A DNA stretch of 61,535 nt from a virus (IMGVR_UViG_3300035182_000178:1-61535); one strand, 5' to 3'. Numbered from the stretch's first letter, positions 3,259 to 17,801 are shown. Translations and numbers: made by a program. Notes: generated by a model from the letters alone, not told the origin.

Positions 3259-3447
3259 CATGGCCGACTTCAAGCATGACGATCTAACCGCGTACGAAGG
3301 GCTGTGGCATCAACGTTGGTCGCTGCCCACCGAGTCGGTTGAAGACAGGATTAAACGCCGCCTCAAAGATAACCACAAGTGTCTGGATCGTGAAGGAATC
3401 GTAGTCTTTAAACAACTGATTGTAGAATCTGCTGAATGGAGAAGGAA

Positions 3448-4287: not shown

Positions 4288-4335
4288 TTGTGGTACTATG
4301 TTCCTGTAGTAAATGAACACATACAGGAGATAACC

Positions 4336-4590: not shown

Positions 4591-4593
4591 GTC

Positions 4594-4872: not shown

Positions 4873-4999
4873 GGAGATATTGTGAGTAATGAAACACCAG
4901 AACAACGTCGTGAAAAAGAACGATTCACCACTGTTTCATCAACAAGTATCGTAATACACTGCATCGGTTTCACTGCTTCACCACATACAGGAGATAACA

Positions 5000-5233
5000 A
5001 TGGCAACAATTGACAAGACAATCGCCGACCGCATCGTTGCTGGCGAGTTTACTGAAGACAACATAAATCGTATCGTTCGTTATATCAATGCGTGGAGCAA
5101 CCCGGCGTATGGTGTGACATTCGGTACTCAGGATAAGTCGCGTTACATGGTCGAGACGCCTTTTGTTCGCAACCCCGTCATCTACTGGGATCCGGCAGAA
5201 GGCATTGACAGATCTGGAGAATTTGACACATAA
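5000..5233 (+). CDS. hypothetical protein
   Basis: CATACAGGAGATAACA-ATG leader. Confidence 0.6.
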   Translation: MATIDKTIADRIVAGEFTEDNINRIVRYINAWSNPAYGVTFGTQDKSRYMVETPFVRNPVIYWDPAEGIDRSGEFDT

Positions 5234-5454
5234 GAAATGCGAACTATTCTGTACGTCTCTTGATGGACGGAGATACGGTCAAAGTGCTCGCGCCGTCGAC
5301 TCTGTACCTGAAACCCAAACCAAGGAGCAAGAAATGAACACCCAAACTCAAGACACCGCAAGATCAAAGCTAAACCGAAAAAAACTGGTGCAGAAGATCG
5401 CTTCTCTCAACGAAGACATCGAAGCTCTAGTGTCGTATGTAGACGGTTGCTAAC

Positions 5455-5679
5455 ATGCTCCGCGTCAATAATACTGGTTACGAGGAATCTGACCTGATTG
5501 CTGACGCGGTTCGCCGCATTGATCTCTGGGCTCCGGCAGGAGTTCCTAATTGGAAAGCCTTACAGAACGTATTCGGTATCCCGGAGCAAGCTGCTCGCGA
5601 AATCTGCGTCATGTGTGACGTCAACCCTGATCTCTGTGAAGGTGCACGATGTCTATCGTCGAAAAACGCGAAGTCATAA
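5455..5679 (+). CDS. hypothetical protein
   Basis: 74 aa ORF in the early gene run. Confidence 0.45.
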   Translation: MLRVNNTGYEESDLIADAVRRIDLWAPAGVPNWKALQNVFGIPEQAAREICVMCDVNPDLCEGARCLSSKNAKS

Positions 5680-5922
5680 AACTTTTGAGCAAGTACGTCA
5701 ACTTCGACGATGAGCAAGTTACCGGTCAAGTCGTGTACCTACTCGGCGGCGTTGCGCAAGTTGTGTTCAACTGGCAAGAACTTGAACTGTGGCGTCAAGC
5801 CACTGGCCTTAACAAGAGTTTGTTTAAGACACACGTCTGGCCTATCTTCGAGTACAAGTTTTACAGGTACGACGAACTGCATCGCCTCGTGTCTGATGTA
5901 CCAAAATATTTACGAGAAGGGG

Positions 5923-5950
5923 TTGCATTGACGCCAAAATCCGGTATAAT
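5923..5950 (+). promoter_or_regulatory. sigma70-type promoter for the 6072 gene
   Basis: TTGCAT-16 bp-TATAAT. Confidence 0.6.
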
Positions 5951-6071
5951 TCAATCCATACAGAGGGATAATCAACCTCGTATCAATCCGCAAACGCCGA
6001 CCGCCAAATCGTCGTTTGCTTCATCCACACCGCTTCGTGAAAGAAGTGGTTTATCTCAGGAGATAGAGATC

Positions 6072-6560
6072 ATGGCAAAGACCGCAGTGTTTGATTCCGA
6101 AAACGTCCTCGTTGATATCTACGAGTCCAAGAAAGAAGCCAGGGCCCACAACAAGGGCACCGACCTGAAGTTCATCGACGCCAAGTCCTTCCCGAAGGGC
6201 GGTATCGGCGAATACGCCACCGTCGAAACCCTGTTCCCTGCCAAGGAAAAACCGGCCAAACCTGAAGGCGAAAAGACCCGCACCGTGGTCAAGCGCGAAG
6301 GTACTTACCGTGTCGTCAAAGCCGACGGTGCGCGCTTCAACGATGGCGACGAGCGCGGTCTCCTGCACACCGCACTGATGGGTTCCACTTCTGTCGAAGA
6401 ATATCTCGGCAAGGCACCGAAGGAAGCTAAGTTCACCTCTTCGCGTGGCGCTGCTCAAGTCGTTACCGCTGCTGGCTATATGTCCTACGCTTTCAAGCGT
6501 GGTTGGATTTCCCAAGGCGAGGCCAGTGACGATCAGCCGGAAGTGGTCGTCGAAGAATAA
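6072..6560 (+). CDS. small putative DNA-binding protein, paralogue of 59823-60437
   Basis: CAGGAG RBS before ATG 6072 inside ORF 5649-6560; GTYRVVK...SVEEYL...YAFKRGWI domain shared with the 59823 ORF. Confidence 0.7.
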   Translation: MAKTAVFDSENVLVDIYESKKEARAHNKGTDLKFIDAKSFPKGGIGEYATVETLFPAKEKPAKPEGEKTRTVVKREGTYRVVKADGARFNDGDERGLLHTALMGSTSVEEYLGKAPKEAKFTSSRGAAQVVTAAGYMSYAFKRGWISQGEASDDQPEVVVEE

Positions 6561-6572
6561 TCTGCACCGCCC

Positions 6573-6604
6573 AAAACAAACCCGGCCTAGGCCGGGTTTT
6601 TTAT
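6573..6604. terminator. bidirectional intrinsic terminator between the early and replication operons
   Basis: Perfect palindrome AAACCCGGCCTAGGCCGGGTTT with A/T tracts on both sides, between convergent genes. Confidence 0.85.
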
Positions 6605-6632
6605 TGCTTGTTTTATGGGCCTGAGACTGTTT

Positions 6633-7094
6633 CTACGGCACCTTGGCTGGCTCAACGCGTTGGCCCCTAGGGGCAAGTATAGGCCAACCCAATAGAGTTG
6701 CTGGCGTACTGTCCAAGGGAACTGCATACTCAGTAAGTTCCGTCCTTGTCATGTCGTTAAAGTGTTCAGCTAGGTGGCTCGGAACAATAAACGTTTGCCG
6801 TGCATGGCTTACCCCCACACCACATAAGATAACGCTGCGTAGGCGCTTCTGCGAAGCTGCTATGTGCCATGCTATTTGTTCCACGCGCAGTCCGTCACGA
6901 CCAAACACCTTAGTTGTGTCACGCTTCGGCCATTCTTTCTGTGCTTTCAGTTCTACCCAGCAGTACCAGTCACCTTCGCCGATCCACAGGTCTGGAACAC
7001 CGTCACCAGTACTGGTCTCTATACGTACGTGAAAAAGCCCCGCTTTCTGCAAGCGAGGCTTCAGGGAAGACCAGAGATTATTCTCGGCTGCCAT
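6633..7094 (-). CDS. VRR-NUC-like PD-(D/E)xK nuclease / Holliday junction resolvase
   Basis: RIETSTGDGVPDL, WVELKA, LRVEQIAWH. Confidence 0.75.
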   Translation of the reverse strand: MAAENNLWSSLKPRLQKAGLFHVRIETSTGDGVPDLWIGEGDWYCWVELKAQKEWPKRDTTKVFGRDGLRVEQIAWHIAASQKRLRSVILCGVGVSHARQTFIVPSHLAEHFNDMTRTELTEYAVPLDSTPATLLGWPILAPRGQRVEPAKVP

Positions 7095-8044
7095 TATTTT
7101 TCCCAGGGACGTTTGACAATTGCCACGCGATTGATGTGATTGTCCTTTATCAGAGCGACGTCAGCGTCGGTGTAGCCCTCGAGCTTGACCTTACCGAATT
7201 TATCTGGTAGCAGACCGATACGGTAAGATGGATGATCACATCGTGAACAGATACCGATCTTATCACGCTCACCTGTGAGAAGGATTCGACGTGCAGCTTT
7301 GAACTTTTCATTGTTCCAGATCGTGTCAATTGCAGTGTGGTTGATGTTACCGAAATCAGTTTCGCGACGCCAGTCAATGCAGCAGATGGAAATATGTCCG
7401 TCCCACTTTACAGCCACCTCGCGGAACACCTTGGCACAACGTGCCTTCACCTTCCTCGGAGGAAGCCCGATTCCAGCGTGGTTGTTCAGTACGCTGTGTG
7501 TGCCTTTGGTTTCACCTGCAATGTCAGTCAGGAACACGAGACGCTGCTTGCGTGAACGCTGGTGCGGATTGGCGTCCTTGTTCGCTGGATAGTTCATTAC
7601 TTCGCGTGAAGCAGGCCAAGCAATCTTTTCGCCGAGGCCGCCGTCATAGTCTTCGATCGCCAGTGTGTTGATGCCAGCATCGAATATTGAATCGATCATC
7701 CCTTCTTTGGTGAACTTGGCGCCGTTACTGAGCATAACCATGTACTGACGCGGCAGGTGACGTCGGAAGGCTTCAATGATCAGGAACACATTGGGATTCA
7801 TAGAAGGCTCGCCGAAGCCAGCGAACAAGAGTTGACTATTCCACCCTGCGATCTTGATCTGCTTTGCTAGCTCCTCCGCCGTTTCCAGCGTCATGAACTT
7901 GTAGTCGCCGACGCCTTCACGAATACCATTGAGACCGCACGCCCAACAAAGTCCTTCGGTGCCGTCTGGTCGTGGAACACGGATATTACAACCTTCTGTC
8001 AGGTCGATCTGGATAGTAAAGGGCGCGTCTTGATTATAACTCAT
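7094..8044 (-). CDS. radical SAM enzyme with C-terminal SPASM/twitch domain and atypical CX13CX2C motif
   Basis: IDLTEGCNIRVPRPDGTEGLCWAC, AGFGEPSMNP, LSNG, CAKVF...WDGHISICCIDW...GN...IWN...ICSRC. Confidence 0.85.
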   Translation of the reverse strand: MSYNQDAPFTIQIDLTEGCNIRVPRPDGTEGLCWACGLNGIREGVGDYKFMTLETAEELAKQIKIAGWNSQLLFAGFGEPSMNPNVFLIIEAFRRHLPRQYMVMLSNGAKFTKEGMIDSIFDAGINTLAIEDYDGGLGEKIAWPASREVMNYPANKDANPHQRSRKQRLVFLTDIAGETKGTHSVLNNHAGIGLPPRKVKARCAKVFREVAVKWDGHISICCIDWRRETDFGNINHTAIDTIWNNEKFKAARRILLTGERDKIGICSRCDHPSYRIGLLPDKFGKVKLEGYTDADVALIKDNHINRVAIVKRPWEK

Positions 8045-8951
8045 TGTAGATCTCCAGGAGTGTGGACTTAAGTTCTGCGACATAGTCTGTCGTCCACAGG
8101 TTACGTTGCTCGTTTCGCATAGCTAGTAGATCGGTGCTGCGATACATATGCTCAAGATCAGCAGCGTTTTCTACTTGCCACTTTTCAGGAACAATAATGT
8201 TGGCTTCGCGCAGCATCTTCACCGACCGTATGTCAAAGAAGATCGGGACACCGGCTGACAGCATTTCATAGAAACGATTGGCTGGCGAATGAAACTCACG
8301 ATGCGAGCGCTCGTCTTCTATGTAGAGCGCAGCATCAAAGCGACATGCTTCCTTGATCACGTTTTCAAACGGCTTGATGAACTTAACGTTCGCACCTATC
8401 GCCTCAAACTTCTTGCGACGAAGCGTCGTGGTGCTGACGGTGATCGGGCAGGTGCCTGTGAAGAACCGCTTGAACGACTCTTGTCGCTTTTCACGGAAGG
8501 CGCCGTAGTAAAGGACACAGTTGTTGCTGAGCATCCTGAACGGATGTGGGTCATAAGTCAGTTGGTTCCAGTTGATGTACCTATCGTCTTCAGTTATGAC
8601 GTTATTACGACATGTGGTCCAGAACACAGGGCGCAGCTTAAGTTCAGCGAAGACCTTACGGAACGGTGATTCGGCGTTACTATTGGCTGACGGCGGCATG
8701 ATCGTATAGTCTTGCTGCACCCAGACTACTTGCTTGCTTCGCCGGACAAGGGTAGCAAGCTCCGGCAGGAAGTCACAAAAGGCCATAGGTCCGTTGACGA
8801 TGATCAATTTTTCAATCGGACCTTTGTCCTTTGCTCGTTCTTTGGTGTCAATGAGACTGAGACCAAGTGTATCGCAAATGAACCGGGCGACACGCGCACT
8901 GGCGATTGTACTGTTCGGCTTACATTCTGTCATATGTACGACGCAGTTCAT
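8034..8951 (-). CDS. T4 beta-glucosyltransferase-like GT-B DNA glycosyltransferase
   Basis: Collinear motif matches to T4 BGT as recalled: KLIIVNGPMAF~RLIVVNSSINF, WVQQDY~YLFTDI, LYYGAFREKRQE~IYGGSFRSGQRE, AALYIED..NRFYEML~AALIIGD..LRVWETM, WQVENAADL~FYVNNRAEL. Confidence 0.75.
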   Translation of the reverse strand: MNCVVHMTECKPNSTIASARVARFICDTLGLSLIDTKERAKDKGPIEKLIIVNGPMAFCDFLPELATLVRRSKQVVWVQQDYTIMPPSANSNAESPFRKVFAELKLRPVFWTTCRNNVITEDDRYINWNQLTYDPHPFRMLSNNCVLYYGAFREKRQESFKRFFTGTCPITVSTTTLRRKKFEAIGANVKFIKPFENVIKEACRFDAALYIEDERSHREFHSPANRFYEMLSAGVPIFFDIRSVKMLREANIIVPEKWQVENAADLEHMYRSTDLLAMRNEQRNLWTTDYVAELKSTLLEIYNEL

Positions 8952-9169
8952 TCAAACTTCTCCTTTCTTATTTCAAGCGCAGCGTCTGCCATGTTAGCCG
9001 CGAACGCAGCCGCGTCCTTTACTGACACAACATCGGGATTAGCACACATACTGGTCAATGCCGCAATGAAATATCGATCCCATGCCTCCGACCAACGTGG
9101 TTTACGCAACTGCTCAACTCTATCAGCGGCTTTTTCCATTTCGCTCAGCTTATCTATTATGCTACTCAT
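8948..9169 (-). CDS. hypothetical protein
   Basis: DRYFIAAL...AANMADAAL small phage protein pattern; ATGA overlap with the glycosyltransferase. Confidence 0.6.
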   Translation of the reverse strand: MSSIIDKLSEMEKAADRVEQLRKPRWSEAWDRYFIAALTSMCANPDVVSVKDAAAFAANMADAALEIRKEKFE

Positions 9170-9314
9170 AGCTTTTCTTCCTTCCTAAAACGCCCTCACA
9201 CCAGAGCATAGTTTCGGCGGACCTACGCAGAGATCACGATTGTTTCTCCGGCATCTTTACATAGGTGCTCACCATAAAACTCTTGCGTTATTGATAGCAC
9301 CAGCCGTACGGTTA

Positions 9315-9668
9315 CTACTCGTCGCAAGCGCCCTTTACCCATCTATATTCGTAACCGCGCTTTCGGTTATAGACCTTTGCGCCATCACGATTCTGCTTCT
9401 CAATAAAACCCATTTTCTCGAGCTTCCGGAGAAAGGGAGTAGATACAGTCGACGCATAGCCGAGACGCTGCTCAATCTGCGCTTGCGTTGACCATGTTTC
9501 AGAAAAAATAACTTTTGAATACCGATCGATAGCTTCTTGGGTATGCTGTTCGCGACCCTTCTGCGCAATCGCTTTCCAGCGTTCGAGTTTGGCATCGTCC
9601 GTACCCTTGTTGCGGTTGAAATGACTGGCAGCTTTACCTGCCGCCTCAATCTGAGCTACGAGACTCAT
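9315..9668 (-). CDS. winged-helix DNA-binding protein
   Basis: STQAQIEQRLGYASTVSTPFLRKLEKMGFIEK. Confidence 0.6.
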   Translation of the reverse strand: MSLVAQIEAAGKAASHFNRNKGTDDAKLERWKAIAQKGREQHTQEAIDRYSKVIFSETWSTQAQIEQRLGYASTVSTPFLRKLEKMGFIEKQNRDGAKVYNRKRGYEYRWVKGACDE

Positions 9669-10219
9669 TTTTCTTTCACCTGCTGAGTCGCATGATCGCC
9701 GTTATAGCGACCACGAACAGCGTAAGACTTGTCTTCCGGCACTGGCTCTGAACGCCAGAAGATCATCTGACCGATACGAACATTGTGGTGGAGACGAATC
9801 GTGTGCCAGTTGCAGAAGTTGGTTAGTTCTAGCGTTAGAACACTGTCGTGCCAGCGTGGATCGCACCAAGTAGCCAGCGAATTTTCCAAGCCAACGCGAG
9901 CGCCAGAGCTATTGAGCTTGAACTCACAGCTGATGTCGTTCGGCAAGAAGAACTTCTCGGTCGTCGAAGCAAGGATAAACGCCTTAGGCCGTAGGTCAAA
10001 GTAACTGTTCGTGATGTCGACTTCTTGCATGAACAATTGTTCTTTGTCGCGCAAAGAAATGGTTGGGTTACTTTCCGGGTAGCATTCGAACTGCACCTTC
10101 TGACCTAGGTGAACGTCAATAGACGTGCCGTTGATGTCCTTAGGGTCTACCCCGGTAATGTAACCACGTTCAACAAACTCGCATAATTCGTTATAGCTTA
10201 TTAGACTTTTTTGCTTCAT
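9665..10219 (-). CDS. dcd: dCTP deaminase (trimeric dUTPase fold)
   Basis: INGTSIDVHLG, FILASTTE, SSGARVGL, DPRWHDSVLTLELTN, RIGQMIF, GRYNG. Confidence 0.85.
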   Translation of the reverse strand: MKQKSLISYNELCEFVERGYITGVDPKDINGTSIDVHLGQKVQFECYPESNPTISLRDKEQLFMQEVDITNSYFDLRPKAFILASTTEKFFLPNDISCEFKLNSSGARVGLENSLATWCDPRWHDSVLTLELTNFCNWHTIRLHHNVRIGQMIFWRSEPVPEDKSYAVRGRYNGDHATQQVKEK

Positions 10220-10376
10220 CTTCCTTCTCCTTCTGTGGTTGCAGTTGTTCGTGTTCGACACAAGTGTCAGTCGCTTTGGTCTTCTTGCCGAAGATGCGCT
10301 CGTAGCTGTCGCGTCCTTTTTCAGACAAGATCCCTTTGGTTCTGATCTTGTCCCCTGTTATGTCATTTCTGCTCAT
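10191..10376 (-). CDS. small hypothetical phage protein
   Basis: MSRNDITGDKIRTK...YERIFGKK; overlaps both neighbours. Confidence 0.5.
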   Translation of the reverse strand: MSRNDITGDKIRTKGILSEKGRDSYERIFGKKTKATDTCVEHEQLQPQKEKEDEAKKSNKL

Positions 10377-10870
10377 GTTTGTTCCTCAGCGCCTTGGATG
10401 GCTGCTAACTGTTCGTCCATTTCAATAGTCCCAAAACAAAGGTTATCAGCAGAAGGAGTGTGTCCGGTAATACGATCTGGTACGCCGATTTCTTGTAGCA
10501 CCTCGGCCTGCGAAGTAGAGCAGCAAGTAACAACAGGGACGACTTTTCCTTTATGGACATGGCGTCCTACAAGTTCATCGGCTGTCGGTAATCCATTCCT
10601 GGTTGCATTTGTCTCGCAGCGTTCGCATAAAATAGCATCGTCTGAAGGATTTGATGTAAACGTCAGGTGACGATCATGTGATGAGACAACCATACCGCAC
10701 CAGAACTGCACGGCGATGTGAGGGCGCTTGTGGATGCTGTAGGTAGATCCGCTCCGTGGCCGGTGTATCAATACACCACGTGAATTCTCAACAAACGGTA
10801 GACAGGCTTTCCACGGTGCTTGTCTGCTGACAATGTGCTTTGGTTTTTCCAGGTCAATAAGTGTACTCAC
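10373..10870 (-). CDS. hypothetical Cys-containing protein
   Basis: GGAG RBS, GTG start; FWCG and LCERCE. Confidence 0.55.
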   Translation of the reverse strand: MSTLIDLEKPKHIVSRQAPWKACLPFVENSRGVLIHRPRSGSTYSIHKRPHIAVQFWCGMVVSSHDRHLTFTSNPSDDAILCERCETNATRNGLPTADELVGRHVHKGKVVPVVTCCSTSQAEVLQEIGVPDRITGHTPSADNLCFGTIEMDEQLAAIQGAEEQT

Positions 10871-11168
10871 GATAATCTCCAAAAAAGACTCCCAGACGAA
10901 ACTCCATCCTTGAAGCAAGGTCAGGCAACTGAAGTTAAGAAGCTATGTCTGGGAGTTGGAAACCGTTAGTCGTTTGCATTCGGTCTTCACTCGACCGGCC
11001 TTGACATTGGCGTGAATCTGTCTAGCGTATTCCTTGCACTCGTTGTACGTTTGCATTGGATATTCGTTGACAGAAGTCGTCCCTCTGTACATGTACACCA
11101 CAATAAGGAGGACTTTCATGTAGCACCTTTCTATCTGTATGAATACTTGTTATGGGTATTGTAGCACA

Positions 11169-13076
11169 CTACCCAGCTAACCCCCAATTGGCACCGCGAC
11201 CATCAGACACCAAAACAGGAACTACCAGCTTGTAGGCAGAAGTCATGATGTGTTTCATGTGCAAAGCTGCTTCCTCGTGACGCGGATTACCTGTCTCTAT
11301 ACTCATGCCTAACTCGTCATACACCGTGTTATGGTACATACCAAGAACGTCGGTGACTCCGTCTTGTACGCCCATAACCATCGCTTTCTTGATCCAATCA
11401 GCATTAGCCCCCTGCATGATAGCGTTCGCGGCTTTGTGCGTATGTGCGCGTTTGACCGCACCCCATGCCCTAATGGCAGCTTCTTTGTCTCTGGTGGGTT
11501 TCCATTTGTCTGGGTCTTTGGCTCGCTCTTCGGGACTAACCCACTTCGCACACTCCCAGGACTCAAATCTACGGCGGCGACCCCCTATGGTCATCACCCA
11601 ACCACGCGCCTGAGCGCGTTCCATGGCCTTATTGGACATTGCTTTTACGAACGGAGCGCGTTCATGATACTGGTTAAGAATCACCAAAGATTCTTTCTTG
11701 CTCAGCCCCAAAGACGAGGCCAATTTCTCTACGCCCATCCCGTACGCAAGACCAAAGTTAATGTTCTTCGCTTGCTTCCGGGTAAGCCCGGTGAGCTGAG
11801 CACACATTTCGTGGAAATCTGTTGCTGGATCTTCTTGGTACATTCGGAGCGCTGCTTCCACACCGCTGCGAGGAATTGTACTCGCAAAATGTACCATGAG
11901 GCGATATTCCATTTGGCTAAGGTCATAGCGAAGCCATTCGCACCCAACTTCAGGAAGGAACATCCCACGACACTTTTGAGAAAAATACGGATCTTTCTCT
12001 GGATTCGGAATGTTCGCAAGATTGGGGTGCGCGGTTGAAGTGCGACCTGTAACAGTTCCATATTCGTCTCCTTTGAGTTGATTGAAAATCGCATGAACAC
12101 GTCCGTTGACGTGCGAATTAAGGATATATCCTTGAATAAACGTATTTAGGAAATGTCGGTACTTCTTTGCATCCCTGATTGCACCAAGGAACGGTACTTG
12201 GTCTTCAAGTGTTGCGAGGACTTTACTGTTGAGTTTGGGATTACCGATTATAATGCCCTTCTTGAGCATCGCTGACGTCGGGGGATGGCGAGGATACGAC
12301 ACACCGAGCTTGTCAAGCTCTGCGGCAATCTGAGTAGAAGAACCAGCGTTAATTCCCGCGAATGACTTTTCCAGTTCTCGAAGTTTCTCGGCCCACTCAG
12401 CTTGAAGTGTTTCGGCATATTGAACATCGACGCGTACTCCTGTTAGATGCATACGAACAAGGATGGGGAGCAGGGCACATTCTACTTTCCAAATGTCTAG
12501 CAGACCTTGTTCTTCAAGAAGCGGTAACTGCTTGTCAAGTATTCGTATAGGTAAGTCGACGTCGCCTTTGGCGTAAGGTTCGACGATGTGAGCCGGACAT
12601 TTCCAGATGAATTTCTTTTCATGACCCGGCTTCGCTTTGAAGTGCTGACGGATATAGGTCAGCATTTCGTCTTCTACTTTACCTTCGCCGAGGTATTCTT
12701 GAGCCAGTGTTTCGAGTGCGTAACTGAACCTCTCTTCGTCGATAAGAGGTTCCGCAACTTGGATGTCGAAGAACGGGCCTTCCACTTGCACACCTTCAGA
12801 CCATAGGAACATAAGGTCGTATGCAAGGTTGGCACCACATTTAGGTATAGGTGTGGAGAGTTGTTCACTGAGCCAGCGTAGAACGGTATTCCTGTCAAGG
12901 TTTCCGCCTCCTTCATGGCGGATAGGAAAGTACCAGCGAGCTGTGCGCGTCCCGATAGCGACACCGGCAATATACCCGTCACGAACTGCTCCCGGCCCTT
13001 TTTCCTTGAGGTCAGGGTCGTAGGTTTCACAGTCAATGGAGATAATGTCTGCATTTTGTAGGTTTGGAAACATCAT
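11169..13076 (-). CDS. polA: family A DNA polymerase with 3'-5' exonuclease domain
   Basis: IDCET (ExoI), NLAYD (ExoII), YAKGD (ExoIII), TVTGRTS, DLSQMEYR (A), RKQAKNINFGLAYG (B), TVYDEL (C). Confidence 0.95.
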   Translation of the reverse strand: MMFPNLQNADIISIDCETYDPDLKEKGPGAVRDGYIAGVAIGTRTARWYFPIRHEGGGNLDRNTVLRWLSEQLSTPIPKCGANLAYDLMFLWSEGVQVEGPFFDIQVAEPLIDEERFSYALETLAQEYLGEGKVEDEMLTYIRQHFKAKPGHEKKFIWKCPAHIVEPYAKGDVDLPIRILDKQLPLLEEQGLLDIWKVECALLPILVRMHLTGVRVDVQYAETLQAEWAEKLRELEKSFAGINAGSSTQIAAELDKLGVSYPRHPPTSAMLKKGIIIGNPKLNSKVLATLEDQVPFLGAIRDAKKYRHFLNTFIQGYILNSHVNGRVHAIFNQLKGDEYGTVTGRTSTAHPNLANIPNPEKDPYFSQKCRGMFLPEVGCEWLRYDLSQMEYRLMVHFASTIPRSGVEAALRMYQEDPATDFHEMCAQLTGLTRKQAKNINFGLAYGMGVEKLASSLGLSKKESLVILNQYHERAPFVKAMSNKAMERAQARGWVMTIGGRRRRFESWECAKWVSPEERAKDPDKWKPTRDKEAAIRAWGAVKRAHTHKAANAIMQGANADWIKKAMVMGVQDGVTDVLGMYHNTVYDELGMSIETGNPRHEEAALHMKHIMTSAYKLVVPVLVSDGRGANWGLAG

Positions 13077-13230
13077 AGATAAATGAGTCCTCTGTTACAG
13101 GTCCGAAGAACCAGGTGTGAATGATTACCGATCACGCAAGGTAAACATCATGAGATACCTGACCGAAACCCGCTGCGTGGTCTTCACTTCAACACCCAGA
13201 ACCTCGTACAGATTCTTTCATGTCAGTTCC

Positions 13231-13620
13231 TTACTTTTCAATCTTCTTACATTCTATGAAGACACGAAGACCTTCGGTGGCGGCGATCAGTTGGGAGACA
13301 CTTTTCCAGTGCATAATGCAGTCGATCAAGTAAATCTCTTCTTGAGGAAGACTGTTACTTACACAGAACCTCTGGAAAAGTGTTTCGTTCTTACGCGCCC
13401 CGCGAATGATTCCAGTGTAGCTGTGGATACATTCCAGGCGCTTAACAACGTACGAAAGCGCCTTTTCAAGATCAATGACACCGTTTTTCTTCCGCCAACG
13501 AGTGATATATTTCGTCGCCGCGTATTCCAGATTGGGTACATTGACTTCTACGCAGTAGTCCCAGTGTTGGTAGTCTGCCTTGTAATGCGTCCCCGCGACC
13601 TGTTTGCTGTCACTTATCAT
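13231..13620 (-). CDS. DUF3310 / T7 gp1.7-like putative nucleotide kinase
   Basis: QVAGTHYK, KYITRWRKKNGVIDLEKALSY. Confidence 0.7.
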   Translation of the reverse strand: MISDSKQVAGTHYKADYQHWDYCVEVNVPNLEYAATKYITRWRKKNGVIDLEKALSYVVKRLECIHSYTGIIRGARKNETLFQRFCVSNSLPQEEIYLIDCIMHWKSVSQLIAATEGLRVFIECKKIEK

Positions 13621-14128
13621 ATGTGCTTTCTACGCTACGAAGAGATGAGACGACTGAATCCAGAAGTATCTTGGCTTTCGCTGGTAATTCCGACAGTTCG
13701 AATGAATCAAAGAACTGAACACCGTTTCGAAGAGGTTCGATGGCGTTCTTGTTGCCCATGTTGATTTCGTCAATACAGAACTGGCACAGTTCCATCATGT
13801 CAGCGAACTTCAGCTCCCGGGTTTCTTCTGCTGTCAGGTTCTGAGTCAGGTTATAACGCTTGTCAAATTCTGCTTCTTGAAGCGAGAGCTGACGCCGTAA
13901 TTCAGGCGAACGCCACTTCGTTGTGGCCGGGATATCACCTGTTTCCAGTTCGGCGAGATCGTGATAAAGAGCCGCTTTCAGAAGTTCTGGACGCACGTTT
14001 CCTTCGTAGATGTGAAGAAGAATCACAGCCACACCGTAGGAATGCTCGGCGAGACTCTGATCACGAGTAGTGGGTATGGTGTGAAAACGCTTCACACGAC
14101 TTGCAAAACGAAGACTATTGTAGCTCAT
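13610..14128 (-). CDS. HD-domain 5'-deoxynucleotidase (YfbR-like)
   Basis: VKRFH, QSLAEHSY, ALYHDLAELETGDIP, LKFADMME. Confidence 0.85.
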   Translation of the reverse strand: MSYNSLRFASRVKRFHTIPTTRDQSLAEHSYGVAVILLHIYEGNVRPELLKAALYHDLAELETGDIPATTKWRSPELRRQLSLQEAEFDKRYNLTQNLTAEETRELKFADMMELCQFCIDEINMGNKNAIEPLRNGVQFFDSFELSELPAKAKILLDSVVSSLRSVESTYDK

Positions 14129-15096
14129 TTCTTGTCCTTGTTATAACGACGCTCAAGCCATTCGGTTGTGTACAAGCGCCAGTCGTCGGCACGAATGTTG
14201 TTGACGAAATCAAGACCGTTGCGGTAGTGCTTGTGGGCAATGAAGACTTCCCACATAGGCTTGACTACTTCCACAAAGAACGGGGTATCGAAGGAAACGC
14301 GTTCGTAGTTTTCGAAGAAGTTAATGAGATCAGAATTGAACTTATCGCGTGTAGTTTCCTTGAACAGGGGATAGAATGTCACAGCTCCTTCTCGGTATGG
14401 GTCTGTGATGTGAACATGGTGGTTCTTTACTTTTTCCCATTTATCGTTCAATTCCGTGTAGACATGCATGGAGTCGGTAGTCTGGTGATAGACGCCTACT
14501 TCGCAACCGATACACCCGGCCATGTATTCTTGAAGGATGCTGAACTGAGGCATGTTGGCCCCGGTCATACCCCAGATGAAATCATTACTACGATTGAACA
14601 CGTGGATATTCAAAGCACCATTGCGAATTTTGCAAGCGATCGCGGTGTTACACGGTTGATCTTTACCGGAATACCACATATCGTCCGGTTTACGAATCTG
14701 TAAAACAACGCGACGATCATCTGGATTTTGCTTGAGAATCTCAATCGCTTTCTCAATCTGGTCATTCGGGTGGCGCATACGATGCCCGTAAGCACCGTAG
14801 AAGACATCGCCGTTGTCACTATACTCTTTGAATGTAGAAACAATGTCTGCCAGGAACTCTACATCTTGTTGGCCAGCGAGAATCCACAGTGGTTCGAAGA
14901 AGTGTAAGAACGGGTTGATGTCACGAACTTTGTCAAACAGTACTCGCTCTTGTGGGCGTGTGTATGAGATACTGACGGGGTTCTCGTATTCAATAACAGG
15001 TCCATTACGACTTGCCCGTCGTTCACCACGACAATTCAAGAACAAGATTCCTCTCGGGAATGCATCGTTCACATTTCTGGCTTTGATTGTGTCCAT
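14125..15096 (-). CDS. thymidylate synthase-fold dUMP hydroxymethylase
   Basis: SRNG, NPFLHFFEPLWILAG, GAYGHR, DDRRVVLQI, DQPCN (catalytic Cys), RSNDFIWGMTGAN (Asn, uracil-type), SMHVY. Confidence 0.8.
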   Translation of the reverse strand: MDTIKARNVNDAFPRGILFLNCRGERRASRNGPVIEYENPVSISYTRPQERVLFDKVRDINPFLHFFEPLWILAGQQDVEFLADIVSTFKEYSDNGDVFYGAYGHRMRHPNDQIEKAIEILKQNPDDRRVVLQIRKPDDMWYSGKDQPCNTAIACKIRNGALNIHVFNRSNDFIWGMTGANMPQFSILQEYMAGCIGCEVGVYHQTTDSMHVYTELNDKWEKVKNHHVHITDPYREGAVTFYPLFKETTRDKFNSDLINFFENYERVSFDTPFFVEVVKPMWEVFIAHKHYRNGLDFVNNIRADDWRLYTTEWLERRYNKDKK

Positions 15097-15278
15097 TAAC
15101 GCTTTCCTCCAGTTTTGTGGTAGTTCTCCCACCACACTTTGCATTTACGATACTGGCTGACTGCTGCTTCCACAGAAACGCACCAACCATTAGGGTCACC
15201 TTTGACACGGAACATTTCTTTACCGGAAATCGCCCCGTGTTTCTTGGCTACAACAATCTTTTCAGCCTCGGCCATCAT
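15096..15278 (-). CDS. hypothetical protein
   Basis: Short ORF coupled between the kinase-family and hydroxymethylase genes. Confidence 0.5.
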   Translation of the reverse strand: MMAEAEKIVVAKKHGAISGKEMFRVKGDPNGWCVSVEAAVSQYRKCKVWWENYHKTGGKR

Positions 15279-16104
15279 ACTTACTCCGCACCTTACCGCC
15301 ATCATACTTCAAACGCATGTACTTGTCAAACTCACACATACAGTTCTGTATGTCGTGAAGCGCAATGTCTTCTCCAAGGCGGCTATTGACTATTTTCTGT
15401 ATGTCCAGTAGTTCACGCGTCCCCTGCTGTTGTTTAATTGTACCACCCAAGGGGCGTCCGTATAAACGGTTCAAGCCACGAGTAGATCCTGGGCCGAGGG
15501 GTGCGAACGTGTTCCAGTCTGCGGCTGCGATGAGCGGGTGTGTGTACTTCAAATCCGCAATAACTTGACCAGCCATAAACGAAGAGAAGCCCTGAAACTG
15601 CTGAAGATAATTCCAATATTCTTCGAGTGACTGACCGACCACCGGGTTCTTGATCGTACTCAAGAGGGGTTTGAATACGACATCACACACGTAGTCAATC
15701 TTGTCCATAGAAAGACCGCAGGTTGATACCGTATAGGCACCAGTGAAAATCTTGTGCCCACCGACATCGCGACGACATTTCAACTTATCACGAACTTTAT
15801 TGAGGTCCGGTGATTCAGAAAATATTTCGTCTTGTATAGCGTGCAAGGTATCTGGCCAGTTGAAAATACGCGCGACGCACATGGCAAAGGCGAGGTTCTT
15901 GTGCGTGCTGAACATGTTCATCCAGTTTTCTTGGATCCAAATACTGACGCGGTCATCGTTTCGGCGTACGTTACAAAACTTGTAGTCGCGAAGGATCGGG
16001 TCTTTCGTCCAAGGTTTCGGGGAACCGAGTACGTCTTTCTGGATACGAATTGCTTCGCGTTCCGTGATCCAGTGAAGCAACTCAGAAAGGGCAGTTTCCA
16101 CCAT
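15262..16104 (-). CDS. aGPT-Pplase1 family / 5-hmdU DNA kinase-like helical protein
   Basis: WITEREAIR, PWTKDPILRDYKFCNVRRNDDRVS, RIFNWPDT, IFTGAY, FMAGQVIADL, GPGSTRGLNRL, DIQNCMCEFDKYMR. Confidence 0.85.
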   Translation of the reverse strand: MVETALSELLHWITEREAIRIQKDVLGSPKPWTKDPILRDYKFCNVRRNDDRVSIWIQENWMNMFSTHKNLAFAMCVARIFNWPDTLHAIQDEIFSESPDLNKVRDKLKCRRDVGGHKIFTGAYTVSTCGLSMDKIDYVCDVVFKPLLSTIKNPVVGQSLEEYWNYLQQFQGFSSFMAGQVIADLKYTHPLIAAADWNTFAPLGPGSTRGLNRLYGRPLGGTIKQQQGTRELLDIQKIVNSRLGEDIALHDIQNCMCEFDKYMRLKYDGGKVRSKYDGRG

Positions 16105-16271
16105 TATATTTCTCCCAGTAAAGTTTCCCGTCAATCGGGTCACGAATATAACGACCTTTTTCGCCACGGTATTCAAAATACGCAGTGGTGAGGCTGTGAG
16201 ACTCGAACTTCAGTCCTGAAAGAAACACTGTCTCACCTTTCCAAGGGCCGTCTGCGCAAATAAAATCTGAC

Positions 16272-17801
16272 TTAATATTGATACCCGTACCTTCCTTGCG
16301 GTAGCACGATGGTGACGTCTTGCTTGCTTCTTGTGACTGCGACATAGGCGCATCTGTGTTCGGAACATGGGTCACGCTGCATCTCCTCATAAGTTTTTCG
16401 TGACATATCAGACAAAATGATCACGTGGTCGGCTTCACCACCCTTGACACCGTGGATCGTGTTAACGTGAACACGGGCTTCTCCGGAAAGACGCTGTCTG
16501 CGCCTGAGCATACCGATATAAAATTCTCTCTTTTCGAGCGGTATTCCCAGTAGTGCTTTGTGCCACACGGGTTTATCAAGAAGTCCGTAATGATCTCGGA
16601 GAGTTTCCCATGTGAAATACTCGTCGGACTTGTCGATGTCGTTAAGTAAGGATTTCCCTCCACGCTGGAGTATAGTACCAACCCGTAAAAACTCGTAGAC
16701 AAGTTGGGCGGATTCAAGAGGTATGGCCTCACCACGCCTAAGAGATTCCCAGGCACTGATCGCACGAACATGCTCTTGATCGACTGCTCTTGTATCATTT
16801 CGCCCAGTGTAGTTGAATCCTCGTAGCTTGAGAAATTCGTATACTTCCTTCAGCAAATAGACATTGCGAACAAGGATGAGCGTACTTTGCTCAGGGTTAA
16901 TCTTAACTGCATCTAAAGTGCTAACGTAAGCCAGTTTGCCGGGGTGGCCTGCGGGTGTAAAAGGCTTGTCGAAGCGTTGCCTGACGCGGCCTATTAGGCT
17001 CGCGGCCTTATTGTATGCTGCCATAGGCAAGCGGTAACTGTGAGCTAGCACAGTAACTTCCCCGGCAAGGCTAAGGAACGTATTTAAGTCGGCACCAGAC
17101 CACTTGAAAATAGATTGGTCGTCGTCTCCGGCTATAGTGACTTTCTCGCAGTCCTGGAAACAACGTTGCAAAACTTCCCATTGAATACGAGACAAGTCCT
17201 GTGCTTCGTCAATGTACGCATAACGCACACTGATAGGATTACCTGATTCAATGTACCTGTCTAGTAGATCTGTAAAGTCTAGCTTACCGTTCCGTTTTTT
17301 ATATTCCCTGTATGCATTTGAAAATCTTTCTACTTCTGCGAACATTGTGTTGCTGTCTGAGTCTTTCCAGACGTCTCGCAAAGGTTTTCGCATCACCCTC
17401 GCCAAGTTATCTATAAACAGAAACTTGGCTCCTTTGTCTTGATCTGGGAGAACCAAAGCGCCGTCTTCAATGTTGATTGAAGCATTAAGTTCGTAACCCA
17501 GTAAAGCGCCTAGTTCAGCGTAGTTTTCTCTGGACATCAGATCACTACGCTGACAGCTCAGTTGTCTATAACAAAGTGCGTGGATAGTCTGGAAAAACGG
17601 CAGTCGGTCTTTGGTAAAGCCGAAACGCTCACTGACACGCTGTACAGCTTCACCGACGGCTTTCTTTGTAAAACTGACGAGCGCTATTTCGTTAGGTTCG
17701 ACGGAAACCAAATCCTGTTCGATTCTATTCAGAATCTCAGTTGTCTTACCAGTGCCAGGAGGACCTAGTAAGACAAACTGGTTAGACGCTATCTGCATCA
17801 A
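16272..17801 (-). CDS. SF1 UvrD/Rep-like DNA helicase
   Basis: GPPGTGKTT, TIHALC, IDEAQD, AGDDDQSIF, SYRLP, TIHGVKGGEAD, YVAVTR. Confidence 0.9.
   Translation of the reverse strand: MMQIASNQFVLLGPPGTGKTTEILNRIEQDLVSVEPNEIALVSFTKKAVGEAVQRVSERFGFTKDRLPFFQTIHALCYRQLSCQRSDLMSRENYAELGALLGYELNASINIEDGALVLPDQDKGAKFLFIDNLARVMRKPLRDVWKDSDSNTMFAEVERFSNAYREYKKRNGKLDFTDLLDRYIESGNPISVRYAYIDEAQDLSRIQWEVLQRCFQDCEKVTIAGDDDQSIFKWSGADLNTFLSLAGEVTVLAHSYRLPMAAYNKAASLIGRVRQRFDKPFTPAGHPGKLAYVSTLDAVKINPEQSTLILVRNVYLLKEVYEFLKLRGFNYTGRNDTRAVDQEHVRAISAWESLRRGEAIPLESAQLVYEFLRVGTILQRGGKSLLNDIDKSDEYFTWETLRDHYGLLDKPVWHKALLGIPLEKREFYIGMLRRRQRLSGEARVHVNTIHGVKGGEADHVIILSDMSRKTYEEMQRDPCSEHRCAYVAVTRSKQDVTIVLPQGRYGYQY

What the first reader, a model, noticed from the sequence alone, without database searches (positions are those of the whole stretch)
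7094..16104. Candidate new thymidine hypermodification pathway: 5-hmdU + DNA kinase + BGT-like glycosyltransferase + radical SAM, with no amino acid transferase
Seen: one co-directional operon holds a TS-fold hydroxymethylase with the uracil-type Asn (RSND...GAN), dCTP deaminase, HD nucleotidase, DUF3310 protein, an aGPT-Pplase1/5-hmdU kinase-family protein, polA, a T4-BGT-like GT-B gene and a radical SAM/SPASM gene overlapping it by 11 nt. Established: M6/ViI/phiW-14-type phages replace T with 5-hmdU, phosphorylate it on DNA, then use an amino acid:DNA transferase (aGPT-Pplase2), sometimes with PLP, rSAM or flavin tailoring enzymes. I cannot recognise an AADT or PLP enzyme here. Inference: a sugar rather than an amino acid is installed, on the hydroxymethyl or on the kinase-added phosphate, and the rSAM may remodel it. 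I do not know this gene combination from characterised phages.
Basis: partly seen in the sequence, partly recalled or inferred. Interest (0 to 1): 0.92.

Follow-up and report, generated by a model that had tools for sequence, protein, structure and literature searches.

The report
Kinase-free sugar-on-hydroxymethyluracil phage DNA cassette
This complete phage genome carries genes that most likely replace thymine with hydroxymethyluracil, attach a sugar to it with a relative of the T4 DNA glucosyltransferase and rework that sugar with a radical enzyme, a DNA chemistry nobody has yet measured.

Summary
The genes are there, with one correction. The "5-hmdU kinase-family" gene (15262-16104) is only the helical aGPT-Pplase1 domain (PF18723). 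The P-loop 5-hmdU DNA kinase (PF18748) and the amino acid:DNA transferase (PF18724) are absent from the whole 61.5-kb genome, which CheckV rates complete.

- **Hydroxymethylase:** the thymidylate-synthase homologue is uracil-type (Asn) and closest to known hydroxymethylases.
- **Glycosyltransferase:** the 305-aa protein has no Pfam or PHROG match. It folds (pLDDT 94.9) like T4 beta-glucosyltransferase and keeps its catalytic Asp and UDP-binding Arg/Glu positions.
- **Radical SAM:** its only PDB sequence relative is BtrN. It carries a clade-conserved CX13CX2C motif.
- **aGPT-Pplase1:** a structural paralogue of the transferase that keeps its catalytic Cys; its role is unknown.

In 160 viral loci the core is hydroxymethylase + aGPT-Pplase1 + a DNA glycosyltransferase. 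The radical SAM gene sits beside either a BGT-like or a TAGT glycosyltransferase, so it most likely tailors the sugar.

Best reading (about 0.55): glycosylated 5-hmdU whose sugar the radical SAM enzyme then alters. The option of a sugar on a kinase-added phosphate is rejected for this genome. My searches found no paper describing this.

The scan has noted the same kind of cassette before on other DNA (34 findings in at least 30 genomes).

The parts
14125..15144 (-). dUMP hydroxymethylase candidate (thymidylate-synthase fold, Asn/uracil type)
   Evidence: PF00303 E 7.4e-21. phrog_5131 E 7.5e-98. Best PDB sequence match is MilA CMP hydroxymethylase 5b6d (E 2e-18), ahead of any thymidylate synthase (6.8e-13); its Asn aligns to the MilA Asp. 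42.6% identical to the Pseudomonas phage MP1412 'deoxyuridylate hydroxymethyltransferase' and 40% over 65% of its length to SPO1 gp29. Below every NCBIfam thymidylate synthase cut-off.
15262..16104 (-). aGPT-Pplase1 (PF18723 'HMUDK_hel'): helix-hairpin-helix, AADT paralogue with an invariant Cys-Glu; not a kinase
   Evidence: PF18723, 154 bits. No Walker A. AF2 pLDDT 93.6. VIA-align top hit 8z2m PaMx11 gp46 AADT, Z 10.6, rmsd 4.1 over 213 residues, followed by HhH DNA glycosylases. C257, E258 and K261 invariant in 36 of 36 sequences. hhalign puts C257 on M6 gp51 C247 (weak: E 0.077, 16 columns).
8034..8951 (-). BGT-like GT-B DNA glycosyltransferase of an uncatalogued, virus-only family (database form starts at 8933, 299 aa)
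   Evidence: Family invariants D75, R147, R150, R220 and E223 align to T4 BGT D100, the R191/R195 motif, R269 and E272. Only 1 hit in genome contigs (185,579 species, per the tool description), and it is a phage-like MAG contig with the same cassette.
7094..8044 (-). Radical SAM enzyme with one auxiliary-cluster (twitch/SPASM) domain, BtrN-like, CX13CX2C motif; overlaps the GT stop by 11 nt
   Evidence: Pfam hits. BtrN 4m7s/4m7t are the only PDB sequence hits, E 1.6e-12. CX13CX2C is found in 30 of 120 listed homologues, the closest ones (about 46% identity or more); CX3CX2C in the other 90. Invariant C19, C33, C36, G78, E79 and five C-terminal Cys.
9665..10261 (-). dCTP deaminase/dUTPase-fold enzyme, probable dUMP supply
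   Evidence: PF22769 E 1.6e-22. TIGR02274 83.8 bits, under its 92.8 cut-off.
13610..14128 (-). HD 5'-deoxynucleotidase-like phosphohydrolase, probable removal of thymidine nucleotides
   Evidence: PF12917 E 1.7e-14. Follows the TS homologue in 30 of 80 GT loci and 44 of 80 rSAM loci.
13231..13620 (-). DUF3310 protein, possible nucleotide-level (hm-dUMP) kinase
   Evidence: phrog_5839 E 1.3e-25, plus weak hits to three PHROGs annotated 'nucleotide kinase'. Pfam DUF3310 is below its cut-off. The function is inferred.
11169..13076 (-). Family A DNA polymerase with 3'-5' exonuclease
   Evidence: PF00476 E 2e-50, PF01612 E 6.1e-06.
8948..9668 (-). Two small ORFs (73 aa; 117 aa with a weak winged-helix hit), role unknown
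   Evidence: MarR E 0.0023, below cut-off. No PHROG hit.
10373..10918 (-). 181-aa Cys/His-rich ORF, unknown
   Evidence: phrog_26046 E 9.5e-09, unknown function. No Pfam or NCBIfam hit. ESM Atlas gave no usable hit.
6633..7094 (-). Last gene of the operon, phrog_2165 member; followed by a convergent terminator-like hairpin at 6578-6599
   Evidence: E 1.3e-20.

Best explanation
**Before replication (inferred from family membership).** The phage makes 5-hm-dUMP from dUMP with its Asn-type TS homologue. The dCTP-deaminase-like enzyme supplies dUMP. The HD phosphohydrolase removes thymidine nucleotides. The DUF3310 protein may act as a nucleotide kinase. The phage PolA then puts 5-hmdU in place of T.

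**After replication (inferred).** The BGT-like GT-B enzyme flips out 5-hmdU and transfers a hexose from a host UDP-sugar to the hydroxymethyl oxygen. This gives a base-J-like nucleobase with no phosphorylation step.

**Tailoring (inferred).** The BtrN-like radical SAM enzyme is translationally coupled to the GT. It acts on the DNA-borne sugar, most simply by oxidising a secondary alcohol to a ketone. Dehydration, epimerisation or a radical rearrangement are not excluded.

**aGPT-Pplase1 (role open).** It is an HhH paralogue of the amino acid:DNA transferase with the catalytic Cys retained, and it works on the same base. I think it most likely binds and flips 5-hmdU, and perhaps attacks C6, in concert with whichever enzyme derivatises the hydroxymethyl group. 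That enzyme is the kinase in classical systems and the GT here.

**Shown versus inferred.** Shown here: gene content, folds, conserved residues and co-occurrence. Inferred: every chemical step.
For: **5-hmdU route.**
- The TS homologue has the catalytic Cys and the uracil-type Asn.
- It is closer to hydroxymethylases than to any thymidylate synthase and falls under all NCBIfam TS cut-offs.
- 48 of the 53 TS homologues next to GT relatives are Asn-type.

**GT.**
- High-confidence model; the six best Foldseek PDB rows are all T4 BGT entries.
- hhalign to T4 BGT covers 214 columns, E 0.0018. Family invariants fall on D100, the R191/R195 motif, R269 and E272.
- The family is virus-only in what I searched.

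**Linkage.**
- Of 80 GT-seeded loci, aGPT-Pplase1 is present in 56, TS in 53 and rSAM in 31. The rSAM lies within 300 nt of the GT in 26 of those 31.
- Of 80 rSAM-seeded loci, aGPT-Pplase1 is in 60, TS in 66, P-loop kinase in 0 and AADT in 0.
- The gene just upstream of the rSAM is a TAGT glycosyltransferase in 37 of the 75 upstream ORFs found.
- So the rSAM keeps company with DNA glycosyltransferases of two unrelated folds. The GT often occurs without the rSAM (27 of 80 loci are GT + Pplase1 only). That is the pattern expected of a tailoring enzyme acting after the GT.

**rSAM.**
- BtrN is its only PDB sequence relative (E 1.6e-12), and four auxiliary-cluster Cys align.
- The unusual CX13CX2C motif is conserved across 30 homologues, so the gene is under selection.

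**No kinase and no AADT:**

**No sugar-nucleotide genes** in the 58 of 76 ORFs scanned, so the donor would come from the host.

**aGPT-Pplase1.** It is paralogous to the AADT and keeps the Cys. The catalytic role of Cys247 is taken from passages of PMC11472151.
Against: - No chemical or sequencing-signal data exist. Only assembled contigs of four metagenome runs hold the region.
- The BGT relationship is structural. The profile search of PDB sequences finds nothing, the hhalign probability is only 14.9%, and no Pfam family matches. The acceptor base is inferred from context.
- Three distant GT relatives sit beside Asp-type (cytosine-type) TS homologues, so the family is not restricted to hmU.
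- The rSAM is only about 20% like BtrN, so its reaction type cannot be read from that.
- The role given to aGPT-Pplase1 is a guess. M6 gp55, its homologue, was dispensable in the published lysate reaction (passages of PMC8989533).
- 25 of 80 GT loci also carry a P-loop kinase, so in relatives phosphate chemistry and glycosylation coexist.
- 18 of my 76 crude ORFs were not Pfam-scanned.
Confidence: 0.55

Rival explanations
1. aGPT-Pplase1 is the real group transferase. It uses its Cys to form the exocyclic methylene directly from 5-hmdU, or from glycosyl-hmU with the sugar as leaving group. It then installs a non-sugar nucleophile or linker. The GT glycosylates that linker, giving an SP-15/YerA41/Carin-5-like oligosaccharide-type thymine.
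For: - Invariant Cys-Glu-x-x-Lys at the position of the AADT catalytic Cys (PMC11472151 passages).
- aGPT-Pplase1 is the most constant partner of both the GT (56 of 80 loci) and the rSAM (60 of 80).
- The only cultured-phage GT homologues covering the full query (99% coverage) are in coliphages IME392 and EP_H11. In IME392 the gene lies beside an aGPT-Pplase1-like gene, a P-loop NTPase, a PIG-L deacetylase and a TS homologue. IME392 is listed among phages with YerA41-like polymerases (PMC12686479 passages).
Against: - No leaving-group-installing kinase in this genome.
- M6 gp55 was not needed for amino-acid transfer in vitro (PMC8989533 passages).
- The GT keeps BGT's base-glucosylating active-site pattern.
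- The alignment of the two Cys is weak.
Confidence: 0.15
2. The virion DNA carries plain 5-hmdU, as in SPO1. The GT-rSAM pair acts on something other than DNA, such as a free nucleotide, a host envelope glycan or a small molecule.
For: GT-B enzymes and BtrN-like rSAMs mostly act on small molecules or glycans. After the BGT rows, the Foldseek list holds protein, lipid and small-molecule glycosyltransferases. There is no direct evidence of DNA binding.
Against: - T4 BGT entries fill the six best Foldseek rows, and the catalytic pattern is shared.
- The genes sit inside the replication and nucleotide operon, tightly linked to aGPT-Pplase1 and the hydroxymethylase in 160 loci.
- In relatives the GT is replaced by TAGT, a DNA-base glycosyltransferase family.
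- The family is absent from cellular genomes apart from one phage-like contig.
Confidence: 0.1
3. Ordinary nucleotide metabolism: the TS homologue is a thymidylate synthase and the DNA holds unmodified thymine.
For: Pfam and PHROG name the family 'thymidylate synthase'.
Against: - Scores lie far under every NCBIfam TS equivalog cut-off.
- Hydroxymethylases are the closest solved and characterised relatives.
- It co-occurs with aGPT-Pplase1, a marker of 5-hmdU hypermodification clusters.
Confidence: 0.03

Closest known systems
Thymidine hypermodification clusters of phages M6/YuA, PaMx11, ViI, PhiW-14, SP10 and SH-Ab 15599 (Lee 2021, PMC8989533; PMC11472151; PMC13458397; passages read)
   Same: Pre-replicative 5-hmdU through a TS-fold hydroxymethylase. 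An aGPT-Pplase1 gene next to it. Post-replicative decoration of the hydroxymethyl group. A syntenic aGPT-Pplase1-TS-...-DUF3310-PolA block, as in Rhizobium phage RHph_TM26. The TS homologue is 42.6% identical to that of Pseudomonas phage MP1412.
   Different: No P-loop 5-hmdU DNA kinase (PF18748), no AADT (PF18724), and no PLP or FAD enzyme or acetyltransferase. A glycosyltransferase and a BtrN-like rSAM take their place. The M6 rSAM (gp53) was matched to spore photoproduct lyase by its authors (PMC8989533 passage), whereas the only PDB sequence relative of the rSAM here is BtrN. I did not compare the two directly.
T4 DNA beta-glucosyltransferase (PDB 1c3j, 1qkj, 1j39)
   Same: GT-B fold, best structural match, similar size. 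Asp at the D100 position, and Arg/Glu at the R191/R195, R269 and E272 positions. The roles of the Arg and Glu residues are recalled, not taken from a call.
   Different: No detectable sequence-family membership: no Pfam hit, and the PDB profile search is empty. It is paired with a uracil-type, not a cytosine-type, hydroxymethylase. It is coupled to a radical SAM gene.
[quoted passage not shown]
   Same: The predicted first product is a hexosyl-5-hydroxymethyluracil in DNA.
   Different: Here hmU is made from nucleotides before replication, not by a dioxygenase on DNA. The GT is GT-B BGT-like, not JGT-like GT-A. Many relatives of this cassette do use TAGT, the JGT-like family. Here a further radical step follows.
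BtrN, radical SAM enzyme of butirosin biosynthesis (PDB 4m7s, 4m7t); its function as 2-deoxy-scyllo-inosamine dehydrogenase is recalled
   Same: The only solved sequence relative (E 1.6e-12). One auxiliary 4Fe-4S site with four aligned Cys.
   Different: Low identity. CX13CX2C instead of CX3CX2C. The predicted substrate is a sugar attached to DNA.
Sugar-bearing thymine hypermodifications of SP-15, YerA41 and Carin-5 (PMC12686479, passages)
   Same: Thymine-derived base carrying sugars. A GT homologue lies in IME392, a phage listed with that polymerase group.
   Different: Those bases have a pentyl-type linker and phosphate, and the phages are large myoviruses with UDG-fused polymerases and sugar-nucleotide genes. 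None of that is present here.

Membership tests
T4 BGT-like DNA glycosyltransferase | GT-B two-Rossmann fold most similar to BGT | tested here: met
   AF2 pLDDT 94.9. The six best Foldseek PDB rows are all BGT entries, E 4.3e-10 to 3.4e-08, TMq 0.62-0.70.
T4 BGT-like DNA glycosyltransferase | Catalytic Asp (D100) and UDP-binding Arg/Glu positions | tested here: met
   hhalign A1 against T4 BGT: invariant D75 on D100, R147/R150 on the R191/R195 motif (one-residue register shift), R220 on R269, E223 on E272. D100 as the catalytic residue is stated in 10.1101/2023.12.21.572611 (passage). The roles of the Arg and Glu residues are recalled.
T4 BGT-like DNA glycosyltransferase | Sequence-family membership (Pfam or profile match) | tested here: not met
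   No Pfam, PHROG or NCBIfam family. The profile search against PDB sequences finds nothing below E 0.95.
T4 BGT-like DNA glycosyltransferase | Transfers a sugar to a hydroxymethylpyrimidine in DNA | not testable with these tools
   Inferred from context only.
Radical SAM superfamily with SPASM/twitch domain | Three-Cys cluster motif, GGE-like SAM motif, auxiliary-cluster Cys | tested here: met
   Pfam hits above cut-off. Invariant C19, C33, C36, G78-E79 and five C-terminal Cys. The spacing is CX13CX2C, conserved in 30 of 120 homologues.
BtrN-type radical SAM dehydrogenase | Oxidises a secondary alcohol of a sugar-like substrate | not testable with these tools
   Only sequence similarity (E 1.6e-12). 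No NCBIfam model reached its cut-off.
aGPT-Pplase1 (PF18723, HMUDK_hel) | Full-length match to the family profile | tested here: met
   154 bits against a 25-bit cut-off, profile positions 4-275 of 281.
5-hmdU DNA kinase (PF18748, P-loop) | P-loop kinase domain present in the genome | tested here: not met
   0 matches at E<=1. Walker A appears only in the UvrD helicase, the terminase and one antisense ORF. tblastn with two phage kinases gives best E 0.085.
Amino acid:DNA transferase (PF18724, aGPT-Pplase2) | Profile match | tested here: not met
   0 matches at E<=1 in the genome.
Amino acid:DNA transferase (PF18724, aGPT-Pplase2) | HhH two-bundle fold with the catalytic Cys on the C-terminal helix | tested here: inconclusive
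   The aGPT-Pplase1 model's best VIA match is 8z2m, the PaMx11 gp46 AADT (Z 10.6), but helical models reach such Z by chance. The Cys alignment is weak. The motif is invariant within the family. The nearest non-PF18723 Atlas clusters are ADDT.
dUMP hydroxymethylase (TS fold) | Catalytic Cys and an Asn at the pyrimidine-discriminating position; closer to hydroxymethylases than to TS | tested here: met
dUMP hydroxymethylase (TS fold) | Makes 5-hm-dUMP rather than dTMP | not testable with these tools
   Needs an enzyme assay.

The most novel reading that the evidence does not exclude
This would be the first radical SAM enzyme that works on a sugar attached to a DNA base. The final nucleobase would not be base J but a keto-, deoxy- or carbon-linked sugar derivative of thymine.

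aGPT-Pplase1 would be a Cys-dependent enzyme that forms the exocyclic-methylene intermediate without any phosphate leaving group. One possibility is that it turns un-derivatised or glycosylated hmU back into thymine. Another is that it exchanges the substituent. Either would give a function to a family that sits unexplained in thymidine-hypermodification clusters such as those of M6, RHph_TM26 and IME392.
Probability: 0.3. Interest if true: 0.9.

Novelty: new variant of a known kind. Interest (0 to 1): 0.8.

Why it matters
- **New base chemistry.** Phage DNA hypermodifications decide which restriction, CRISPR and glycosylase defences a phage escapes, and they have supplied enzymes for epigenetic sequencing. 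The known thymine pathways all pass through a DNA kinase and an amino acid or polyamine transferase. This cassette points to a second, kinase-free branch that puts sugars on hydroxymethyluracil. That base chemistry is known only from trypanosomes.
- **Radical tailoring.** It adds a radical tailoring step with no precedent on DNA-borne sugars.
- **Abundance.** The branch is common: 160 viral loci were fetched here, and the scan has noted it in at least 30 other genomes.
- **A test bed for aGPT-Pplase1.** The function of aGPT-Pplase1 is unknown although it accompanies known thymine pathways such as that of M6. The kinase-free layout is a clean setting in which to find it.
- **Ready to reconstitute.** The window offers a complete 61.5-kb genome with a minimal set of one GT, one rSAM and one Pplase1.

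Tried and rejected
**Searches that found nothing**
- Megablast of 7000-16200 against phage records: no match.
- Profile of the GT family against PDB sequences: nothing below E 0.95.
- tblastn of the rSAM in phage records: one unannotated record only.
- ESM Atlas for the 181-aa ORF: no usable hit.
- Promoter and terminator scan of 6000-20500: counts no higher than in shuffles. Only the hairpin at 6578-6599 looks convincing.

**Tests without a verdict**
- Complex prediction of GT with aGPT-Pplase1: no verdict (score 0.00, controls not run). It says nothing for or against binding.
- Foldseek of the aGPT-Pplase1 model: no row with E<=0.001. VIA-align was then used.

**Expression and read data**
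- The look-up of sequencing runs: four DNA runs hold the region, all kept as Logan contigs, and no RNA holder is listed. No base-modification signal or expression can therefore be read, and read laying was not used.

**Readings considered and rejected**
- 'Sugar on a kinase-added phosphate': no kinase in this genome.
- rSAM acting before the GT: the GT often occurs without the rSAM, and the rSAM keeps to glycosyltransferases.
- A defective rSAM because of the odd Cys spacing: the insert is conserved in 30 homologues.

**Literature**
- Eight searches were answered. None listed a paper on glycosylated 5-hmU in a phage, on the function of aGPT-Pplase1, or on a GT + rSAM + aGPT-Pplase1 cluster.
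- Iyer et al. 2013 (PMC3763556), which defined the aGPT-Pplase clades, is not held. Supplements are closed. Either may hold context maps that bear on novelty, for example the supplementary figures of PMC8989533 and the contig tables of 10.1101/2023.12.21.572611.

Full report
**What is there.** The window is a whole virus record of 61,535 bases that CheckV rates 100% complete. Positions 6633-19339 form one minus-strand block. In transcription order it reads:
- AEP primase
- UvrD-type helicase
- aGPT-Pplase1 (15262-16104)
- TS homologue (14125-15144)
- HD phosphohydrolase (13610-14128)
- DUF3310 protein (13231-13620)
- PolA (11169-13076)
- two small ORFs and a 181-aa ORF
- dCTP-deaminase-like protein (9665-10261)
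- two more small ORFs
- the 305-aa protein (8034-8951)
- the radical SAM/SPASM protein (7094-8044)
- a phrog_2165 protein (6633-7094)

A strong hairpin at 6578-6599 closes the block. The 11-nt overlap of GT and rSAM holds for the 316-aa start used in the protein database.

**The correction: there is no DNA kinase.**
- In the published pathways the 5-hmdU DNA kinase is a P-loop protein, and the aGPT-Pplases are separate helix-hairpin-helix proteins (PMC8989533, passages).
- Pfam now calls aGPT-Pplase1 'HMUDK_hel' (PF18723), the kinase 'HMUDK_HMUD1' (PF18748) and the transferase 'ADDT' (PF18724). I checked these names on Rhizobium phage RHph_TM26 and coliphage IME392 proteins.
- The window's protein matches PF18723 over its whole length and has no Walker A motif.
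- PF18748 and PF18724 each give 0 matches at E<=1 in the genome.
- tblastn with two phage kinases and one AADT finds nothing.
- The only Walker A motifs are in the helicase, the terminase and an antisense ORF.
- Pfam scans of 58 of my 76 crude ORFs show no PLP, FAD, acetyltransferase or sugar-nucleotide enzyme.
- The Pfam name is explained by a cluster of 577-aa proteins in the ESM Atlas that fuse PF18723 to PF18748.

**The hydroxymethylase.**
- The TS homologue keeps the catalytic Cys and has RSND...GAN.
- Its best solved relative is the CMP hydroxymethylase MilA (E 2e-18), ahead of the best thymidylate synthase (6.8e-13). The Asn aligns with MilA's Asp.
- It is 42.6% identical to the Pseudomonas phage MP1412 'deoxyuridylate hydroxymethyltransferase' and 40% identical, over 65% of its length, to SPO1 gp29. 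That SPO1 gp29 is a characterised dUMP hydroxymethylase is recalled.
- It falls far below all NCBIfam thymidylate synthase cut-offs.
- A thymidylate-synthase homologue can also make 5-hydroxy-dCMP (PMC13326640, abstract), but the Asn argues for a uracil substrate.

**The glycosyltransferase.**
- The 305-aa protein belongs to a family of 143 metagenomic proteins. None of the 120 listed has a Pfam domain.
- With a 42-sequence alignment AlphaFold gives pLDDT 94.9.
- The six best Foldseek PDB rows are all T4 beta-glucosyltransferase entries (E 4.3e-10, TMq 0.70). Other GT-B enzymes follow.
- A profile-to-sequence alignment with T4 BGT, taken from NC_000866, covers 214 columns (E 0.0018, probability 14.9%). 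It places the family's invariant D75, R147/R150, R220 and E223 on BGT D100, the R191/R195 motif, R269 and E272.
- The family is viral. One scan of the genome-contig collection (185,579 species, per the tool description) found a single hit, a MAG contig carrying rSAM-GT-Pplase1-TS-HD.

**The radical SAM enzyme.**
- Its only PDB sequence relatives are the two BtrN entries (E 1.6e-12). The four auxiliary-cluster Cys align. No NCBIfam model reaches its cut-off.
- The cluster motif is CX13CX2C. The ten-residue insert is conserved in 30 of the 120 listed homologues, namely the closest ones (about 46% identity or more). The other 90 have CX3CX2C.
- The family alignment keeps the three cluster Cys, a G-E SAM motif and five C-terminal Cys.

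**aGPT-Pplase1.**
- A 36-sequence alignment has an invariant Cys-Glu-x-x-Lys (C257, E258, K261). The same motif is in M6 gp55, RHph_TM26 and IME392.
- The model (pLDDT 93.6) has no Foldseek match at E<=0.001.
- In the full VIA-align search its best match is 8z2m, the PaMx11 gp46 glycine transferase (Z 10.6, rmsd 4.1, 213 residues). About twenty HhH DNA glycosylases follow. The tool warns that helical models reach such Z by chance.
- hhalign weakly puts C257 on C247 of M6 gp51. C247 is the residue that forms the covalent intermediate in gp46 (PMC11472151, passages).
- With PF18723 excluded, the nearest Atlas clusters are ADDT families.
- So the cluster does hold a transferase-like enzyme. Its homologue M6 gp55 was not needed for the published in vitro reaction, and I found no paper giving it a function.

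**Context elsewhere: 80 viral loci seeded with the GT family, local tblastn.**

| Gene | Loci of 80 |
|---|---|
| aGPT-Pplase1 | 56 |
| TS | 53 |
| PolA | 37 |
| rSAM | 31 |
| HD | 30 |
| P-loop kinase | 25 |
| DUF3310 | 19 |

| Layout | Loci of 80 |
|---|---|
| GT + Pplase1 only | 27 |
| GT + Pplase1 + rSAM + kinase | 13 |
| GT + Pplase1 + rSAM | 9 |
| GT + Pplase1 + kinase | 7 |
| GT + rSAM, no Pplase1 seen | 9 |
| other | 15 |

- Many loci are cut by contig ends. Among the 38 with at least 4 kb on both sides, the counts are 30 Pplase1, 29 TS, 15 rSAM and 12 kinase.
- The rSAM lies within 300 nt of the GT in 26 of 31 loci.
- Of the 53 TS homologues, 48 are Asn-type, 3 Asp-type and 2 unresolved.

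**Context elsewhere: 80 loci seeded with the rSAM family.**
- aGPT-Pplase1 is in 60, TS in 66, the BGT-like GT in only 4, and kinase and AADT in 0.
- An ORF just upstream of the rSAM was found in 75 loci. It is a TAGT glycosyltransferase (PF20691) in 37, Glycos_transf_1 in 1 and aGPT-Pplase1 in 5. Most of the others have no Pfam match.
- The rSAM therefore travels with DNA glycosyltransferases of two unrelated folds, always in a uracil-hydroxymethylase and aGPT-Pplase1 setting.

**Cultured phages.** The only full-length GT homologues (99% query coverage) are in coliphages IME392 and EP_H11. In IME392 the GT homologue lies next to an aGPT-Pplase1-like gene, a P-loop NTPase, a TS homologue, an HD protein, a PIG-L deacetylase and a methyltransferase.

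**How it most likely works.**
- *Shown:* the gene set, the folds, the conserved residues and the linkage.
- *Inferred:* dUMP is hydroxymethylated. Thymidine nucleotides are removed by the HD enzyme and dUMP is fed by the deaminase-like enzyme. The DUF3310 protein may act as a nucleotide kinase. It hits three PHROGs annotated 'nucleotide kinase', and its link to T7 gp1.7 is recalled. The polymerase incorporates 5-hmdU. The BGT-like enzyme then glycosylates the hydroxymethyl oxygen with a host UDP-sugar. The rSAM, an optional add-on that depends on a GT, alters the sugar. aGPT-Pplase1 acts on the same flipped base.
- I put 0.55 on 'glycosylated 5-hmdU further tailored by the rSAM'.
- The main rival (0.15) makes aGPT-Pplase1 the transferase and the GT a second-step enzyme.
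- Smaller rivals are a non-DNA substrate (0.1) and plain thymidylate synthesis (0.03).

**Novelty.**
- The eight answered searches and the passages read list no phage with glycosylated 5-hmU and no GT + rSAM + aGPT-Pplase1 pathway.
- Pyle et al. note only that GT-B-type phage GTs are often near thymidylate synthase genes (10.1101/2023.12.21.572611, passage).
- Iyer et al. 2013 is not held and supplements are closed, so a context figure showing this layout may exist unseen.
- The scan itself has met this kind of cassette on other DNA: 34 findings in at least 30 genomes, with the BGT-like GT noted in four other genomes. Those follow-ups reached the same general reading. I reached mine from my own calls.
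- Particular to this window: a complete genome, the minimal one-GT, kinase-free layout, the BGT-like rather than TAGT transferase, and the CX13CX2C clade of the rSAM.
- I class it as a new variant of a known kind, 5-hmdU-derived thymine hypermodification.

Noticed in passing
window 7094-8044 (minus strand): The radical SAM cluster motif is CX13CX2C, with a conserved VPRxDGTxGL insert. 30 of 120 listed homologues share it, the closest ones (about 46% identity or more). The other 90 have CX3CX2C.
   Followed up: partly
ESM Atlas cluster seen from window 15262-16104: A cluster of 76 proteins of about 577 aa fuses PF18723 (aGPT-Pplase1) to PF18748 (P-loop 5-hmdU DNA kinase). This explains the Pfam name and argues that the two work together.
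   Followed up: no
L001 (Escherichia phage IME392, MH719082) 3069-12607: A cultured coliphage carries a homologue of this GT beside an aGPT-Pplase1-like gene, a P-loop NTPase, an Asn-type TS homologue, an HD protein, a PIG-L deacetylase, a methyltransferase, a BCCT transporter and a further 344-aa protein. It looks like a richer sugar-type thymine pathway in an isolate that could be tested.
   Followed up: partly
L065, L078, L081: Three distant relatives of the GT (28-32% identity) sit beside Asp-type (cytosine-type) TS homologues, so the family probably also serves hydroxymethylcytosine phages.
   Followed up: no
rSAM-seeded loci L086-L165: In one locus the gene upstream of the rSAM is a Tet_JBP dioxygenase, and in 37 it is a TAGT glycosyltransferase. 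A 10-member cluster of 316-351-aa upstream proteins has no Pfam match and may be another uncatalogued GT family.
   Followed up: partly
window 13231-13620: The DUF3310 protein hits three PHROGs annotated 'nucleotide kinase' through its conserved core. It follows the TS and HD genes in many related loci, so it may be the hm-dUMP kinase.
   Followed up: no
window 20287-21210 and 21834-22397: Pam3 gp34-like and Pam3 gp33-like proteins. This ties the genome to Pseudanabaena phage Pam3, which also carries aGPT-Pplase1 and aGPT-Pplase2 homologues.
   Followed up: no
window 44025-44456: A Cpn10 (GroES-like) co-chaperonin homologue lies inside the virion module.
   Followed up: no
window 6578-6599: A perfect 9-bp GC-rich hairpin with T runs lies between the convergent plus-strand gene 5649-6560 and the end of the minus-strand operon. 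It is a likely bidirectional terminator.
   Followed up: no
L166 (MAG contig, genome contigs): The only hit to the GT family among cellular species genomes is a 19-kb contig binned as Patescibacteria that carries rSAM-GT-Pplase1-TS-HD. It is probably a phage contig binned with a cell.
   Followed up: partly
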